DNA from: an uncultured delta proteobacterium
GTDB taxonomy: Bacteria; Desulfobacterota; RBG-13-43-22
Direction: 5' to 3'
Length of the DNA: 64,000 nt
NCBI GenBank assembly: GCA_963843145.1
Contig: CAWJJC010000021.1
Location: forward strand, 32,001 to 96,000
Part shown: positions 15,562-18,950 of the stretch, piece after piece
How positions within the stretch are numbered: position 1 is the first letter of the stretch
Layout: every line of letters starts with the position of its first letter
The notes under the pieces: model-generated
Seen by the model: only the letters and a program-made list of their open reading frames with translations
What the model was told of the DNA's origin: nothing
The model's database searches: none
Made by a program: the position numbers and the translations under genes

Positions 15562-16719
15562 ATGGATTACTTCCTGACCGAAGAGCAGCAGATGATCAAA
15601 GAGATTGCCCGAAAAATCGCCGACGAGCGCATCAAACCGGTTCGGGCTGAATTGGATGAAAAGGAGGAATTCCCCTGGGATATTCTTAAGCTGATCGGCC
15701 AGTCGGACCTCTTTGGCGTCTATATACCCCAGGAATACGGCGGTTTCGGGGGAGGAAGCTTCGAAAATTGTCTGGCCGTGGAGGAATTGTCCCGGGCCTG
15801 TCTGGGTGTTTCCACCAGTTACGCGGCCAGCGCCCTGGGGGCGTACCCGCTCCTTTTATACGGCAACGAAGAGCAGAAGAAAAGATATTTGCCCGAAATC
15901 GCCAGCGGCCGGAAGCTGGCCGCTTTCGCGCTGACCGAATCCACGGCCGGCAGTGACGCCAGCGGCATCATGACTACGGCGGAATTAAAGGGAAACGACT
16001 ATATCCTCAACGGCACGAAACAATGGATTACCAATGGGGGCGAGGCGGAGATCTATACCGTGATCGCCATCACCGACCGCAGCAAGGGCCCTCGCGGGGC
16101 CAGCGCCTTTGTCCTGGAAAAGGGCGATCCCGGTTTTGATTTCGGTAAGAAAGAAAGTAAGATGGGTATACGGGCTTCGGCCACCCGGGAACTGATTTTC
16201 AACCAATGCCGGATCCCCAAAGACCGGTTGATCGCCCGGGAGGGGATGGGTTTTATCGTGGCCATGAAAACCTTCGACCAGTCCCGTCCCGGGGTGGGGG
16301 CTCAAGGGGTCGGCCTGGCCCAGGGGGCGCTGGAGGAGGCCGTTCAATACGCCCGTACCCGCGTCCAATTCGGCAAACCCATTATTGCCTTTCAAGCCAT
16401 CCAACACCTGCTGGCTGACATGGCTACGCTGACCGAGGCGGCCCGAGCCCTGGTCTACTCGGTGGCCCGGTATGTCGACAGCGGGGCCAAGGAGGTATCC
16501 AAGGTGTCCGCCATGGCCAAAGTCTTCGCCAGCGACACGGCCATGAAAGTGACTACCGACGCCGTTCAAGTTTTTGGAGGGACCGGATACATGCGGGATT
16601 ACCCGGTTGAAAAGATGATGCGTGATGCCAAGATCCTGCAAATCTACGAAGGCACCAACCAGGTTCAGCGCAACATCATCGGCCAGGAGCTGAATAAAGA
16701 AGGCGGAAGGAAAAAATAA
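15562..16719 (+). CDS. Acyl-CoA dehydrogenase (butyryl-CoA dehydrogenase/CarC-like)
   Basis: FALTESTAGSD, GTKQWITNG, KMGIRAS, RVQFGKPI, QIYEGTNQVQR (catalytic Glu). Confidence 0.93.
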   Translation: MDYFLTEEQQMIKEIARKIADERIKPVRAELDEKEEFPWDILKLIGQSDLFGVYIPQEYGGFGGGSFENCLAVEELSRACLGVSTSYAASALGAYPLLLYGNEEQKKRYLPEIASGRKLAAFALTESTAGSDASGIMTTAELKGNDYILNGTKQWITNGGEAEIYTVIAITDRSKGPRGASAFVLEKGDPGFDFGKKESKMGIRASATRELIFNQCRIPKDRLIAREGMGFIVAMKTFDQSRPGVGAQGVGLAQGALEEAVQYARTRVQFGKPIIAFQAIQHLLADMATLTEAARALVYSVARYVDSGAKEVSKVSAMAKVFASDTAMKVTTDAVQVFGGTGYMRDYPVEKMMRDAKILQIYEGTNQVQRNIIGQELNKEGGRKK

Positions 16720-16903
16720 ACTCGAAATTCGAAGCACGAAATCGACTCGGCTGAGCCTTTCGGTAAACTCAAGGCCCTGAGCTTGTCGAAGGGCTCGTCG
16801 CAGGCCGAAACAAACACCAAGGCTCAAAACCCAAATGATCAAAACTAAAACGTTTAGAATCTTGAATCTCGGTCATTTGGATTTGTTTCGGTTTTCGGAT
16901 TTA
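16718..16903. repeat. Heptamer-periodic hairpin repeat carrying a 62-bp nested insert (16744-16805)
   Basis: Aligns with 8132-8268; insert is identical to 27361-27422. Confidence 0.8.
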
Positions 16904-16933
16904 TCCAAAGAAGATAAGAAAAACCAATAACTT

Positions 16934-17734
16934 ATGCATATCATAGTTTGTTTGAAACAAGTCCCCGATGCCCGGCAGGTCAAGCTGGATCCGGAGACCC
17001 ACACCCTGATTCGTTCCGGGGTGGAAAGCATCATCAATCCGTACGATATGTATGCCCTGGAAGAAGGGTTGCGGATCAAAGAGCGGTTGGAAGGCACCGT
17101 GACGGTGCTGACCATGGGCCCGCCGCAGGCCGAAGCCGCGTTACGGGAGGCCATTTCCTACGGGGCGGATGAGGCGGTACTGCTTTCGGACCGGGCCTTT
17201 GCCGGGGCCGATACCTGGGCGACTACCTATACCCTGGCTCGGGGCGTTGAAAAAATCGGGCCCTTTGATTTGATCCTTTGCGGCAAGCAGGCCGTTGACG
17301 GGGACACCGCCCAGGTAGGACCCGGGCTGGCCGAACGGCTTTCTCTGCCTTATGCTGCCTGGGTGAGAAAGATCGAAACCCTGGAGCAGGGGTTGATCCG
17401 GGTCCAACGCCTGATGGATGACGGCTACGATCGTCTGGAACTTGCCCTTCCGGCCCTGCTGACCGTGGTTAAGGAGATCAATGAACCCCGGGTTCCTTCA
17501 TTAAAAGGGAAGATGCGGGCCAAGAGTCAAAAGATCCCCCTTTACGGCGCAGCCGATATCGGGGCCGATCCCCAGCAGACCGGTCTGGCCGGTTCCTATA
17601 CCCAGGTCATTCGGATTTTCGCCCCGGTGCGCGCCCGGGAAAAGGAGTGGTTGACGGGTTCGGTGGAGAACCAGGTGGGGCAGCTCCTTCAAAAATTATC
17701 CGCCCGGCAATTAATACCTGCTGCTATTTCCTGA
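16934..17734 (+). CDS. etfB: Electron transfer flavoprotein beta subunit
   Basis: KQVPD, INPYD, MGPPQA, SDRAFAGADT, GKQAVDGDTAQVGP, EINEPR. Confidence 0.95.
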   Translation: MHIIVCLKQVPDARQVKLDPETHTLIRSGVESIINPYDMYALEEGLRIKERLEGTVTVLTMGPPQAEAALREAISYGADEAVLLSDRAFAGADTWATTYTLARGVEKIGPFDLILCGKQAVDGDTAQVGPGLAERLSLPYAAWVRKIETLEQGLIRVQRLMDDGYDRLELALPALLTVVKEINEPRVPSLKGKMRAKSQKIPLYGAADIGADPQQTGLAGSYTQVIRIFAPVRAREKEWLTGSVENQVGQLLQKLSARQLIPAAIS

Positions 17735-17750
17735 TCGAGGTCGGCGCACG

Positions 17751-18950
17751 ATGGGTTCTGAAATTTTGATCGACTTAGAGCGGTGTTCCGGTTGCGAAAG
17801 CTGTCTGGAAGTCTGCCCCTTCAGTGCGCTGGAATGGCGCGACGGAAAACCGGTGGTCAACGACCAATGCACGCTCTGCGGGGCCTGCGCCGAGGTTTGC
17901 CCGGAAGAAGCGATTACCCTTCCGGAAAGGGCTTCGGCGAGCGGTCCGGAAGCAGGCTATCAGGGCGTGATGGTTTTTGCCGAACAGCGTCTGGGGCGAT
18001 TGGCGGATGTGGCCTTTGAACTGCTGGCGAAGGGCCGCGAATTGGCCGGTACCCTGGGCGTGAACCTGACGGCGGCCTTATTGGGGCGGAATCTGGCCCC
18101 CTTGGCGGCGGAGCTGGTGGCGCAGGGGGCCGATCGGGTCTATACGGTGGATCATCCCCGGGTGGAGGGATTTACCGACGAAGCTTACGGGGAGGCCCTG
18201 ACCCAGATTATCCGGACGGTTCGGCCGGAAATCCTGCTGGCCGGCGCAACCTCCGTCGGCCGTTCCTTTATCCCCAAAGTGGCCACCCAGGTGGGCACGG
18301 GGTTGACGGCCGACTGCACCGATTTAACTATCGATCCGGAAAAAAAACATCTGCTGCAGACCCGTCCGGCCTTTGGGGGCAATATTATGGCCACCATTAT
18401 CTGTCCGCGGAGGCGTCCGCAAATGGCCACGGTCAGAGCCCGGGTGATGAAACGAGGGGCGGTACAGCCCGGACGACCCGGGGAAGTGGTCCCCTTTGAG
18501 GTGGATTGGAAACGGGTGCCCGGTAAAACCAGGCTGCTGGAAATTGTCGAAGAACTTACGGAGAAAGTGCGGCTGGCCGAAGCCGATATTATCGTGACGG
18601 GAGGCCGGGGTTTGCAGGAGGGAAAAAATTTTTCTCTGATCCGGGAATTGGCCGATTGTCTGGGCGCGGCCGTGGGGGCCTCCCGGGGGGCGGTGGATTC
18701 GGACTGGATTCCCTACGCCCATCAAGTGGGGCAAACCGGGAAGACCGTGGCCCCTAAATTGTATCTGGCCGTCGGCGTTTCCGGGGCGGTCCAGCATTTG
18801 GTGGGCATGCAGTCCTCCGAAACCATTGTGGCCGTGAACATTGATCCCCAGGCCCCTATCTTTGACGTGGCCACCTATGGTATAGTGGGCGACCTTTTTG
18901 AGGTGGTCCCGGAGATGATCCGGCAATTAAAAGCGGCCGGGGGGCGGTAA
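17751..18950 (+). CDS. etfA: Electron transfer flavoprotein alpha subunit with N-terminal 2x[4Fe-4S] ferredoxin domain
   Basis: [12 protein letters not shown] and [43 protein letters not shown]. Confidence 0.95.

What the first reader, a model, noticed from the sequence alone, without database searches (positions are those of the whole stretch)
15562..18950. Bifurcating-type acyl-CoA dehydrogenase/ETF module inside the FAS-II operon: candidate new enoyl-ACP reductase
Seen: acd-etfB-etfA sit co-oriented between plsX and fabG-acpP-fabF, with only 17 nt from etfA to fabG. This is the slot usually held by fabH/fabD (and fabK in some anaerobes). No fabI/K/V/L and no beta-oxidation genes (thiolase, crotonase) appear in the window. 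EtfB has NPYD and DGDTAQVGP, and EtfA has an N-terminal 2x[4Fe-4S] domain. Established: this architecture matches electron-bifurcating enoyl-CoA reductases such as clostridial Bcd-EtfAB and Acetobacterium CarCDE (CarE has the ferredoxin fusion), which couple NADH-dependent enoyl reduction to ferredoxin reduction. Inference: the complex reduces enoyl-ACP, or makes acyl primers for FabH, so that lipid synthesis conserves energy as reduced ferredoxin.
Basis: partly seen in the sequence, partly recalled or inferred. Interest (0 to 1): 0.8.

Follow-up and report, generated by a model that had tools for sequence, protein, structure and literature searches.

The report
Acyl-CoA-dehydrogenase/ETF module inside fatty-acid-synthesis operon
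A butyryl-CoA-dehydrogenase-like flavoprotein with its electron-transfer partner is a conserved resident of the fatty-acid synthesis operon in many anaerobic bacteria, and probably does the enoyl-reduction step in a way that could also save energy.

Summary
The window holds yceD-rpmF-plsX-acd-etfB-etfA(ferredoxin-fused)-fabG-acpP-fabF on one strand, 17 nt from etfA to fabG. The ACAD is not a stray beta-oxidation gene. It has single-copy orthologues (60-99% identity; paralogues at most 53%) in 57 of 121 sampled genomes of the phylum. In 38 of 40 orthologue loci fetched there, it sits inside the fab operon. Of its 80 nearest relatives in a species-wide collection (record titles name Thermodesulfobacteriota, Nitrospirota, Omnitrophota), 59 are fab-linked. 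Relatives lacking it carry FabK (2 genomes) or FabI (1) between plsX and fabD, or the plain fabH-fabD order (3). FabI occurs in 1 of 57 ACAD-positive and 16 of 64 ACAD-negative genomes. In three small genomes it is the only ACAD, and no crotonase or real thiolase was found. The ETF is closest to solved CarDE; the ACAD is closest to the Bcd of 5ol2.

Best reading (about 0.55): an ACAD-type, ETF-dependent, probably bifurcating enoyl-ACP reductase.

Caveats:
- This genome also has FabK-like paralogues.
- 29 of 64 ACAD-negative genomes also lack a recognised reductase.
- Some lineages lack the adjacent ETF.
- No biochemistry exists.
- No description turned up in nine full-text searches.

The parts
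13326..13353 (+). promoter-like site (TTGACA-16-TATAGT, 11 of 12) upstream of yceD; possible operon start
   Evidence: a consensus match only
13383..13922 (+). yceD (DUF177)
   Evidence: PF02620, 71.8 bits
14129..14311 (+). rpmF (ribosomal protein L32), 60 aa
   Evidence: ORF; identified as L32 from the sequence pattern and its place before plsX (recalled, no family scan run)
14224..15414 (+). plsX phosphate acyltransferase (listed ORF; true start probably near 14359)
   Evidence: TIGR00182 362 bits, over cut-off 243, match from residue 46
15562..16719 (+). acyl-CoA-dehydrogenase-family flavoprotein (385 aa); candidate enoyl-ACP reductase subunit
   Evidence: PF02771, PF02770 and PF00441; best NCBIfam AcrC 456 bits, below cut-off 640; best PDB 5ol2_C 419 bits, YEGT Glu363 invariant in 39 orthologues
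16934..17734 (+). etfB, ETF small subunit of the type found in bifurcating ETFs
   Evidence: PF01012; best PDB 6fah_B CarD 261 bits against human ETF-beta 98 bits; NPYD and DGDTAQVGP
17751..18950 (+). etfA, ETF large subunit with an N-terminal 2x[4Fe-4S] ferredoxin domain (residues about 5-60, nt 17763-17930)
   Evidence: Fer4 families plus PF01012 and PF00766; two CxxCxxCxxxCP motifs; aligned over its full length to 6fah_A CarE, 411 bits
18968..19711 (+). fabG 3-oxoacyl-ACP reductase
   Evidence: TIGR01830 331 bits, over cut-off 298
19892..20125 (+). acpP acyl carrier protein; the only acpP hit in the genome by tblastn
   Evidence: NF002149 115 bits, over cut-off 106
20153..21409 (+). fabF beta-ketoacyl-ACP synthase II
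   Evidence: TIGR03150 639 bits, over cut-off 494
7101..8090 (+). fabH copy, detached from the operon
   Evidence: TIGR00747 363 bits, over cut-off 292; Pfam

Best explanation
The ACAD is the enoyl-reducing enzyme of type II fatty-acid synthesis in this lineage, either the main one or one of several. It would take trans-2-enoyl-ACP made by FabZ and reduce it to acyl-ACP at its FAD, the physiological direction of clostridial Bcd. Electrons would come from the adjacent EtfBA. By similarity to CarDE, Bcd-EtfAB and LctBC, this ETF binds NADH at a second FAD in EtfB and splits the electron pair: one electron goes downhill through the EtfA FAD to the ACAD, the other goes uphill, probably through the two [4Fe-4S] clusters fused to EtfA, to ferredoxin. 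Each elongation cycle would then yield reduced ferredoxin rather than wasting the large drop from NADH to the enoyl/acyl couple. Shown here: gene order, orthology, conservation, position between plsX and fabD where three relatives carry FabK or FabI, phyletic pattern, and sequence class of all three subunits. Inferred: ACP-bound substrate, reductive direction, bifurcation, ferredoxin as second acceptor.
For: (1) Orthology. Best matches of 66-99% identity were found in 31 of 40 relatives, against at most 53% for any paralogue. One copy was found in each of 57 of 121 high-quality genomes of the phylum. The 88 orthologues form a clade that excludes 21 paralogues of this genome. (2) Synteny. 20 of 20 and 18 of 20 orthologue loci lie inside plsX-(fabH)-acd-(etfBA)-(fabD)-fabG-acpP-fabF. 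59 of the 80 nearest relatives in a species-wide collection are fab-linked, including a different placement after fabF in records titled Omnitrophota. (3) Same position as known reductases. Relatives lacking the ACAD have plsX-FabK-fabD (G022 372 bits; G034 479 bits, over cut-off) or plsX-fabH-FabI-fabD (G025), compared with plsX-acd-fabD in G021, G031, G033 and G035. (4) Phyletic pattern. FabI occurs in 1 of 57 ACAD-positive and 16 of 64 ACAD-negative genomes. The four FabK matches over the cut-off are all in ACAD-negative genomes. 42 of 57 ACAD-positive genomes have no FabI, FabK-like, FabL or FabV match, against 29 of 64 ACAD-negative ones. (5) A dedicated module without beta-oxidation. In G036 (one contig), G039 and G027 it is the only PF00441 match, with no crotonase match and only marginal thiolase matches of 28 bits or less. 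In G036, G039, G029 and G023 the only EtfA is the one at the fab locus. (6) Conservation. The ACAD is 66-77% identical across families, while PlsX is 41-58% and FabG 50-60% in the same loci. Mean column identity is 77% over 39 sequences. (7) Machinery. Best PDB matches are 5ol2_C for the ACAD (419 bits), and 6fah CarE and CarD for EtfA (411 bits, full length with the ferredoxin domain) and EtfB (261 bits). The next matches are 7koe, 7qh2 LctBC, 5ol2 and 4kpu, far above human ETF at 179 and 98 bits. (8) No terminator-like site lies between genes on the + strand from yceD to fabF.
Against: No activity data exist, and nothing tested here separates ACP from CoA substrates. This genome has four FabK-like paralogues (best 322 bits, 47% identical to the in-operon FabK of G034), so the ACAD need not be its only reductase. 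15 of 57 ACAD-positive genomes carry a FabI (G021), a FabL over the cut-off (G039, G079, G112, G109) or a FabK-like protein. G036 has a divergent FabI-like protein that my FabI threshold missed (161 bits), so 42 of 57 is an upper bound. 29 of 64 ACAD-negative genomes, among them G038 (100% complete), also show no recognised reductase, so an unrecognised reductase exists in the phylum and could be present in ACAD-positive genomes too. One locus (L168) has both the ACAD-ETF genes and an NMO/FabK-like gene (196 bits) in one fab operon. In 14 of 59 fab-linked loci, and in 8 of the 18 fab-embedded loci, etfBA is not adjacent. In G031 and G035 the only ferredoxin-fused ETF lies in a thiolase-crotonase-etfB-etfA operon. 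15 of the 80 nearest relatives (one Nitrospirota subclade) stand alone among unrelated genes. Genomes of one phylum are kin, so the counts overstate independence.
Confidence: 0.55

Rival explanations
1. An acyl-ACP dehydrogenase working backwards, as Helicobacter FabX does. The ACAD would oxidise a medium-chain acyl-ACP to trans-2-enoyl-ACP, and perhaps isomerise it to cis-3, to start unsaturated fatty acids without oxygen. The ETF would run in the confurcating direction, as LctBCD does, using reduced ferredoxin to make NAD+ a feasible acceptor.
For: G039, G029 and G027 each have a single FabA/FabZ-family match, so no separate FabA was found and the route to unsaturated acids is open. ETFs of this class are known to run in both directions: 7qh2 LctBC is among the best matches (reversibility stated in passages of PMC6085437 and the abstract of PMC9232219). 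The ACAD coexists with FabL, FabI or FabK-like proteins in 15 of 57 genomes and with an NMO gene in one operon. FabX as a precedent for backtracking: abstract of PMC8626469.
Against: An accessory desaturation enzyme should co-occur with a reductase rather than replace it. Yet FabI is nearly exclusive with the ACAD (1 of 57 against 16 of 64), and 42 of 57 ACAD-positive genomes show no recognised reductase. The position between plsX and fabD is taken by FabI, an undoubted reductase, in G025. No isomerase feature was tested.
Confidence: 0.17
2. A CoA-level enzyme merely co-regulated with lipid synthesis. It would be a Bcd-type enoyl-CoA reductase or acyl-CoA dehydrogenase that makes short acyl-CoA primers for FabH, or that handles acyl-CoA from lipid turnover.
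For: All characterised close homologues act on CoA thioesters. In G031 and G035 the ferredoxin-fused ETF lies with thiolase and crotonase genes. fabH is often the gene just before acd.
Against: G036, G039 and G027 keep the module but gave no crotonase match and no real thiolase match, so crotonyl-CoA has no evident source. The ACAD also stands in operons without an adjacent fabH, and where FabK or FabI stands in relatives. None of the orthologue loci examined showed beta-oxidation neighbours; thiolase and crotonase were queried only in the own genome and in four 'alone' loci by Pfam.
Confidence: 0.15
3. A reductase or dehydrogenase for another ACP- or lipid-linked reaction, for example on a hydroxy, branched or ether-lipid precursor. 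Alternatively, a moonlighting flavoprotein whose place in the operon reflects regulation only.
For: 15 of 80 relatives are stand-alone genes, and two phylum members have acd-etfBA away from fab genes. 29 of 64 ACAD-negative genomes manage without any recognised reductase.
Against: Very high conservation, single copy, and repeated independent placement in the housekeeping fab operon argue for a core step of the cycle.
Confidence: 0.13

Closest known systems
Butyryl-CoA dehydrogenase/EtfAB complex (PDB 5ol2; that this is the clostridial electron-bifurcating complex is recalled)
   Same: The ACAD is most similar to chain 5ol2_C (419 bits, aligned over 371 residues, catalytic YEGT Glu conserved). 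EtfA and EtfB match 5ol2_A and 5ol2_B at 284 and 220 bits. The physiological direction of that enzyme is enoyl reduction.
   Different: The genes sit in the FAS-II operon, not with thiolase, crotonase or hydroxybutyryl-CoA dehydrogenase. EtfA carries a ferredoxin domain that 5ol2_A lacks (alignment starts at residue 72). The presumed substrate is ACP-bound. The taxa are Thermodesulfobacteriota, Nitrospirota and Omnitrophota by record title. A 2018 survey placed bifurcating Bcd in Firmicutes, Fusobacteria and Bacteroidetes (passages of PMC6085437).
Caffeyl-CoA reductase CarCDE of Acetobacterium woodii (PDB 6fah)
   Same: The best solved match for both ETF subunits, including the N-terminal 2x[4Fe-4S] domain of CarE (411 bits, residues 8-396 against 6-394; CarD 261 bits).
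   Different: CarC is only the 21st ACAD match (309 bits). The context is lipid synthesis, not phenylacrylate respiration.
FabK (TIGR03151) and FabI (NF006019 and related models), the known enoyl-ACP reductases
   Same: They occupy the same operon position between plsX/fabH and fabD in relatives G022 and G034 (FabK) and G025 (FabI). Same proposed reaction.
   Different: No homology: FabK is an NMO-type TIM-barrel FMN protein, FabI is an SDR, and this protein is an ACAD that needs a separate electron carrier.
Helicobacter pylori FabX (acyl-ACP dehydrogenase/isomerase)
   Same: A flavoprotein with Fe-S involvement that acts on acyl-ACP inside FAS-II (abstract of PMC8626469). It is the precedent for the main rival reading.
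   Different: FabX belongs to the FabK/NMO family (recalled) and is a single protein, not ACAD plus ETF.
Carrier-protein-dependent ACADs of secondary metabolism (MbtN NF037942; RedW NF045652; PigA NF053553)
   Same: They show that the ACAD fold can accept carrier-protein-bound thioesters.
   Different: Scores lie far below cut-offs (MbtN 77 against 700; RedW 254 against 650; PigA 233 against 500). Those enzymes oxidise their substrates and are not in FAS-II operons.

Membership tests
Bifurcating ACAD/ETF enoyl-thioester reductases (Bcd-EtfAB, CarCDE) | ACAD-fold catalytic subunit with the C-terminal catalytic glutamate | tested here: met
   Three ACAD Pfam domains. YEGT with E363 invariant in 39 orthologues, aligned to the same motif of 5ol2_C. 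The role of this Glu is recalled.
Bifurcating ACAD/ETF enoyl-thioester reductases (Bcd-EtfAB, CarCDE) | EtfB of the two-FAD (NADH-binding) class rather than the AMP-binding canonical class | tested here: met
   The top five PDB matches (6fah_B, 7koe_A, 7qh2_B, 5ol2_B, 4kpu_B) score 216-261 bits, against 97-98 bits for human ETF-beta. DGDTAQVGP is present. That this motif marks bifurcating EtfB, and that 7koe and 4kpu are bifurcating, are recalled. Flavin content cannot be read from sequence.
Bifurcating ACAD/ETF enoyl-thioester reductases (Bcd-EtfAB, CarCDE) | EtfA with an N-terminal 2x[4Fe-4S] ferredoxin domain (CarE/LctC subtype) | tested here: met
   Two CxxCxxCxxxCP motifs, Fer4 Pfam matches, full-length alignment to CarE.
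Bifurcating ACAD/ETF enoyl-thioester reductases (Bcd-EtfAB, CarCDE) | NADH-dependent reduction of ferredoxin coupled to enoyl reduction | not testable with these tools
   Needs anoxic enzyme assays.
Bifurcating ACAD/ETF enoyl-thioester reductases (Bcd-EtfAB, CarCDE) | Substrate is a CoA thioester supplied by neighbouring CoA-pathway genes | tested here: not met
   The neighbours are plsX, fabG, acpP and fabF. No thiolase or crotonase lies in the window or within 6 kb. None was found at all in G036, G039 and G027. The substrate itself is untested.
NCBIfam equivalogs AcrC (NF042972), cyclohexane-1-carbonyl-CoA dehydrogenase (NF043006) | Whole-protein score over the curated cut-off | tested here: not met
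   456 against 640 and 388 against 650 bits.
Known enoyl-ACP reductase families (FabI/FabL/FabV SDR type; FabK NMO type) | Homology to one of these families | tested here: not met
   The protein is an ACAD. If it is a reductase of FAS-II, it is a new structural class of that function.
Enoyl-ACP reductase as a function | Encoded within the housekeeping FAS-II operon, in the place where known reductases occur | tested here: met
Enoyl-ACP reductase as a function | Phyletic complementarity with the known reductases | tested here: inconclusive
   FabI 1 of 57 against 16 of 64; no recognised reductase in 42 of 57 against 29 of 64; but 15 of 57 ACAD-positive genomes have a known or possible one. Thresholds miss divergent FabI-like proteins, and genomes are kin.
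Enoyl-ACP reductase as a function | Reduces trans-2-enoyl-ACP; docks AcpP | not testable with these tools
   Needs an assay, genetics or a structure.
FabX-type acyl-ACP dehydrogenase/isomerase | NMO/FabK-family flavoprotein with its own [4Fe-4S] cluster | tested here: not met
   ACAD fold; the Fe-S clusters are on EtfA. It could still work like FabX.

The most novel reading that the evidence does not exclude
A further structural class of enoyl-ACP reductase exists: an ACAD-family flavoprotein fed by a ferredoxin-fused bifurcating ETF. It would be the main FAS-II reductase in a large part of the Thermodesulfobacteriota, Nitrospirota and Omnitrophota. Every elongation cycle would then oxidise two NADH and deliver reduced ferredoxin, so membrane-lipid synthesis in energy-limited anaerobes would conserve energy rather than dissipate it.
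Probability: 0.38. Interest if true: 0.9.

Novelty: new variant of a known kind. Interest (0 to 1): 0.8.

Why it matters
The enoyl-ACP reductase step is the most variable step of bacterial fatty-acid synthesis and a classic drug target. The known solutions are SDRs (FabI, FabL, FabV) and FabK. An ACAD/ETF solution would add a new class. It would fill the missing reductase in many anaerobe genomes that currently look incomplete. It would also be the first case of flavin-based electron bifurcation built into an anabolic housekeeping pathway, which changes energy budgets for syntrophs and sulfate reducers living near the thermodynamic limit. The question is directly testable, because the record titles name a cultured carrier (Desulfacinum hydrothermale DSM 13146, locus L176).

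Tried and rejected
- Complex prediction with two ACAD copies plus AcpP, both as alignments A1 and A2, gave no verdict (score 0.02, mark 0.32). This is no evidence either way.
- The look-up of sequencing runs and read laying: two wetland metatranscriptome runs hold only short contigs (150-260 nt, 93-99% alike) on plsX, acd, etfB and etfA. No contig bridges genes, and DNA carry-over is not excluded. They say nothing firm on expression or co-transcription.
- Rfam scan of 12700-21900 at E up to 0.1 found no match.
- FabV search (PF12241) found 0 of 1, 0 of 41 and 0 of 121 genomes, but the control genomes did not ring either, so the absence is weakly founded.
- Clade-specific residues (R28, Q154, W155, H282, K351) and clade-specific basic residues (R28, K118, R173, R226, K236, R303) were listed. 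They could not be placed on a structure, so no docking-patch claim is made.
- 'A beta-oxidation gene inserted by chance' is rejected on orthology, synteny and the beta-oxidation-free carriers.
- Using absence of a recognised reductase as proof was considered. It is rejected as proof because G038, G040 and 27 other ACAD-negative genomes lack one too.
- Nine full-text searches found no paper describing an ACAD/ETF in a fab operon. Subscription journals and supplementary files were not searched.

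
Full report
**What is there**

The + strand of the window carries a tight, co-oriented gene row:
- yceD (13383-13922)
- rpmF (14129-14311)
- plsX (to 15414)
- an acyl-CoA-dehydrogenase-family gene (15562-16719)
- etfB (16934-17734)
- etfA (17751-18950)
- fabG (18968-19711)
- acpP (19892-20125)
- fabF (20153-21409)
- then rpiB, glyA, a dCMP deaminase, nrdR and the rib genes

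PlsX, FabG, AcpP and FabF all pass NCBIfam equivalog cut-offs. By tblastn, plsX, acpP and fabD each occur once in the genome. This is therefore the housekeeping FAS-II operon, not a secondary-metabolite cluster.

EtfA ends 17 nt before fabG. EtfB shows NPYD and DGDTAQVGP. EtfA starts with two CxxCxxCxxxCP motifs.

A promoter-like site lies before yceD. No terminator-like site lies between genes on the + strand up to fabF (consensus scans only).

A fabH copy is in the window at 7101-8090, cut off from the operon by five minus-strand genes. The only fabD lies elsewhere, next to 2-oxoacid:ferredoxin oxidoreductase genes.

**Not a stray beta-oxidation gene**

The genome has 29 PF00441 matches. Among 20 ACAD paralogues found by tblastn above 150 bits, 8 lie within 6 kb of thiolase and/or crotonase genes. 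Only the window's copy lies beside fab genes, and it has no such neighbour.

- In 40 relatives, 31 have a best match of 66-99% identity. No paralogue anywhere exceeds 53%.
- In an even sample of 121 genomes of the phylum (at least 90% complete, G000 included), 57 have exactly one match at E up to 1e-150, at 60-100% identity.
- A maximum-likelihood tree puts 88 orthologues in one short-branched clade that excludes 21 paralogues of this genome. The support for that node is only 0.59.
- Mean column identity over 39 orthologues from several phyla is 77%, and the YEGT glutamate is invariant.
- Within the same loci the ACAD (66-77% identity) is better conserved than PlsX (41-58%), FabG (50-60%) or FabF (60-67%).

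**Synteny**

All 20 orthologue loci first fetched from relatives show the ACAD inside the fab operon:
- 15 as plsX-(fabH)-acd-etfB-etfA-fabG
- 4 as plsX-acd-fabD-fabG-acpP-fabF, without ETF genes
- 1 as plsX-fabH-acd-acpP

Of 20 more loci from 14 further families, 18 are fab-embedded: 10 are followed by etfBA and 8 by fabD. Two loci, from the most divergent family (59-61% identity), are acd-etfBA away from fab genes.

A scan of one genome per species returned 593 relatives among 600 stretches. The best 80 (67-99% identity) carry record titles naming Thermodesulfobacteriota/'delta proteobacteria', Nitrospirota/Thermodesulfovibrionia and Omnitrophota, plus a few labelled Bacillota, Actinomycetota or Dehalococcoidales. 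One cultured strain is named, Desulfacinum hydrothermale DSM 13146.

Among these 80 loci:
- 59 have a pls or fab neighbour, and 45 of those also have etfBA
- 6 have only etfBA
- 15 stand alone

The 15 that stand alone form one Nitrospirota subclade nested among fab-linked ones. In the four of them scanned, the neighbours are unrelated housekeeping genes.

In the Omnitrophota records the gene sits after fabF (plsX-fabH-fabD-fabG-acpP-fabF-acd). This is a second, independent placement in the same operon.

**What relatives without it have**

Two family members without the ACAD also lack a plsX match, so they are probably assembly gaps. Six other ACAD-negative relatives were examined:
- G022 and G034 have plsX-FabK-fabD (372 bits and 479 bits; the latter is over the TIGR03151 cut-off).
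- G025 has plsX-fabH-FabI-fabD (370 bits; all best NCBIfam hits are FabI models).
- G030, G038 and G040 have the plain plsX-fabH-fabD-fabG order.

So FabK or FabI lies between plsX and fabD in three of these genomes, where other lineages carry the ACAD.

**Phyletic pattern**

In the 121-genome sample:

| Reductase family | ACAD-positive (57) | ACAD-negative (64) |
|---|---|---|
| FabI (E up to 1e-55) | 1 | 16 |
| FabK-like (E up to 1e-80) | 10 | 20 |
| FabK over the cut-off | 0 | 4 |
| FabL over the cut-off | 4 | 0 |
| FabV (no positive control rang) | 0 | 0 |
| None of these | 42 | 29 |

The enrichment is real but not clean, for four reasons:
- The thresholds miss divergent forms. G036 has a protein that hits only FabI models, at 161 bits.
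- ACAD-negative G038 (100% complete) has no recognised reductase. Its only second SDR is pteridine-reductase-like.
- Genomes of one phylum are not independent.
- The own genome has four FabK-like paralogues (best 322 bits), none in a fab context. None of its 24 SDRs scanned is FabI- or FabL-like.

**Carriers without beta-oxidation**

Three searches covered five small carrier genomes.
- G036 (a single contig), G039 and G027: one PF00441 match each, which is the fab-locus gene; no crotonase match; at most a 28-bit thiolase match.
- G029: one ACAD, no thiolase, four crotonase-family genes.
- G036, G039, G029 and G023: the only EtfA is the one at the fab locus.

A CoA-based beta-oxidation or butyrate-type pathway therefore cannot be the module's context in these organisms.

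**Machinery**

The ACAD's best solved relative is 5ol2_C (419 bits); CarC scores 309 bits.

EtfA aligns end to end with CarE of 6fah, ferredoxin domain included (411 bits). EtfB aligns with CarD (261 bits). The next matches are 7koe, LctBC of 7qh2, 5ol2 and 4kpu. Human ETF scores 179 and 98 bits.

By sequence, this is a CarDE/Bcd-EtfAB-class ETF. That these solved ETFs bifurcate or confurcate is from the entry names for 6fah and 7qh2, from passages of PMC6085437, and otherwise recalled.

**Mechanism proposed**

FabZ makes trans-2-enoyl-ACP, and the ACAD reduces it. EtfB takes a hydride from NADH. One electron passes through the EtfA flavin to the ACAD. The other passes, probably through the fused [4Fe-4S] clusters, to ferredoxin.

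All of this is inference from context and homology. ACP use, direction and bifurcation are untested.

**Complications**

- In about a quarter to a half of fab-linked loci the ETF genes are not adjacent: 14 of 59 in the species-wide set and 8 of 18.
- In G031 and G035 the only ferredoxin-fused EtfA (49-52% identical) lies in a thiolase-crotonase-etfB-etfA operon without an ACAD. G033 has no fused EtfA. The electron partner in those lineages is therefore unresolved, and this ETF type can also keep company with CoA enzymes.
- One locus (L168) has the ACAD-ETF genes and an NMO/FabK-like gene (196 bits) in one operon.
- G039, G029 and G027 have a single FabA/FabZ-family gene. The route to unsaturated acids is thus open, and a FabX-like 'backtracking' dehydrogenase driven by confurcation remains a live rival.

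**Literature**

Nine full-text searches returned no paper that describes an ACAD/ETF in a fab operon or an ACAD-type enoyl-ACP reductase.

In the passages I saw, the 2018 survey PMC6085437 places bifurcating Bcd in Firmicutes, Fusobacteria and Bacteroidetes and Car mainly in Firmicutes. It has no occurrence of 'Deltaproteobacteria' or 'Nitrospirae' in its main text. Its supplementary tables could not be seen and might list such homologues. Subscription journals are not covered, so I cannot state that the idea is absent from print.

**Verdict**

The link of this ACAD to FAS-II is strongly supported by comparative genomics. Its role as an enoyl-ACP reductase is the best-supported reading (about 0.55). 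Bifurcation is plausible from the ETF class, where the ETF is present. It is a new variant of a known machine in a new pathway role, and it is worth an experiment.

Noticed in passing
window 35002-35595 and 35645-36781 (+): The DNA primase gene dnaG appears split into two ORFs. The first holds the zinc ribbon plus DNAG_N positions 1-67; the second holds DNAG_N positions 90-127 plus Toprim. This could be a frameshift, an internal stop or an assembly error.
   Followed up: no
window 40021-42762 and 42859-43170 (-): An AcrB-type RND pump gene also looks broken. A 103-aa ORF holds ACR_tran positions 1-51 and a 913-aa ORF holds positions 137-1020. A second, intact RND cluster lies at 44754-53639.
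   Followed up: no
G000:C28:428431-432143 (locus L018): The genome's only fabD sits directly next to a four-gene 2-oxoacid:ferredoxin oxidoreductase cluster (Fer4, POR_N, TPP_enzyme_C, POR) on the same strand.
   Followed up: no
L226 (G031:C2) 3403-7730 and L227 (G035:C155) 7033-11171: Operons of thiolase-crotonase-etfB-etfA (ferredoxin-fused) with no ACAD gene, in lineages whose fab-operon ACAD lacks adjacent ETF genes.
   Followed up: partly
G038, G040 (loci L104, L105, L111): These near-complete genomes have a canonical plsX-fabH-fabD-fabG-acpP-fabF operon but no FabI, FabK, FabL or FabV match and no ACAD orthologue. G038 has only one SDR besides FabG, which is PRK09134/pteridine-reductase-like (229 bits). 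Another unrecognised enoyl-ACP reductase probably exists in this phylum.
   Followed up: partly
L199 (G029:C79:6489-7454): An NMO-like domain (69 bits) lies inside an open frame of 2662 aa. It may be an enoyl-reductase domain of a large PKS- or PUFA-synthase-like protein.
   Followed up: no
L168 12167-13147: One fab operon (record titled 'uncultured actinobacterium') carries both acd-etfBA and an NMO/FabK-like gene (TIGR03151 196 bits) between acpP and fabF.
   Followed up: partly
window 15415-15561 and 16720-16933: The plsX-acd (147 nt) and acd-etfB (214 nt) spacers are long for this operon. By eye they contain similar short words (for example 'gaagggctc', 'ggctcaggatga'), possibly REP-like intergenic repeats. 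Rfam found nothing.
   Followed up: no
window 4281-6948 (+): A lutABC-like cluster (CCG domain, LUD plus Fer4, LUD) lies directly upstream of the detached fabH copy.
   Followed up: no
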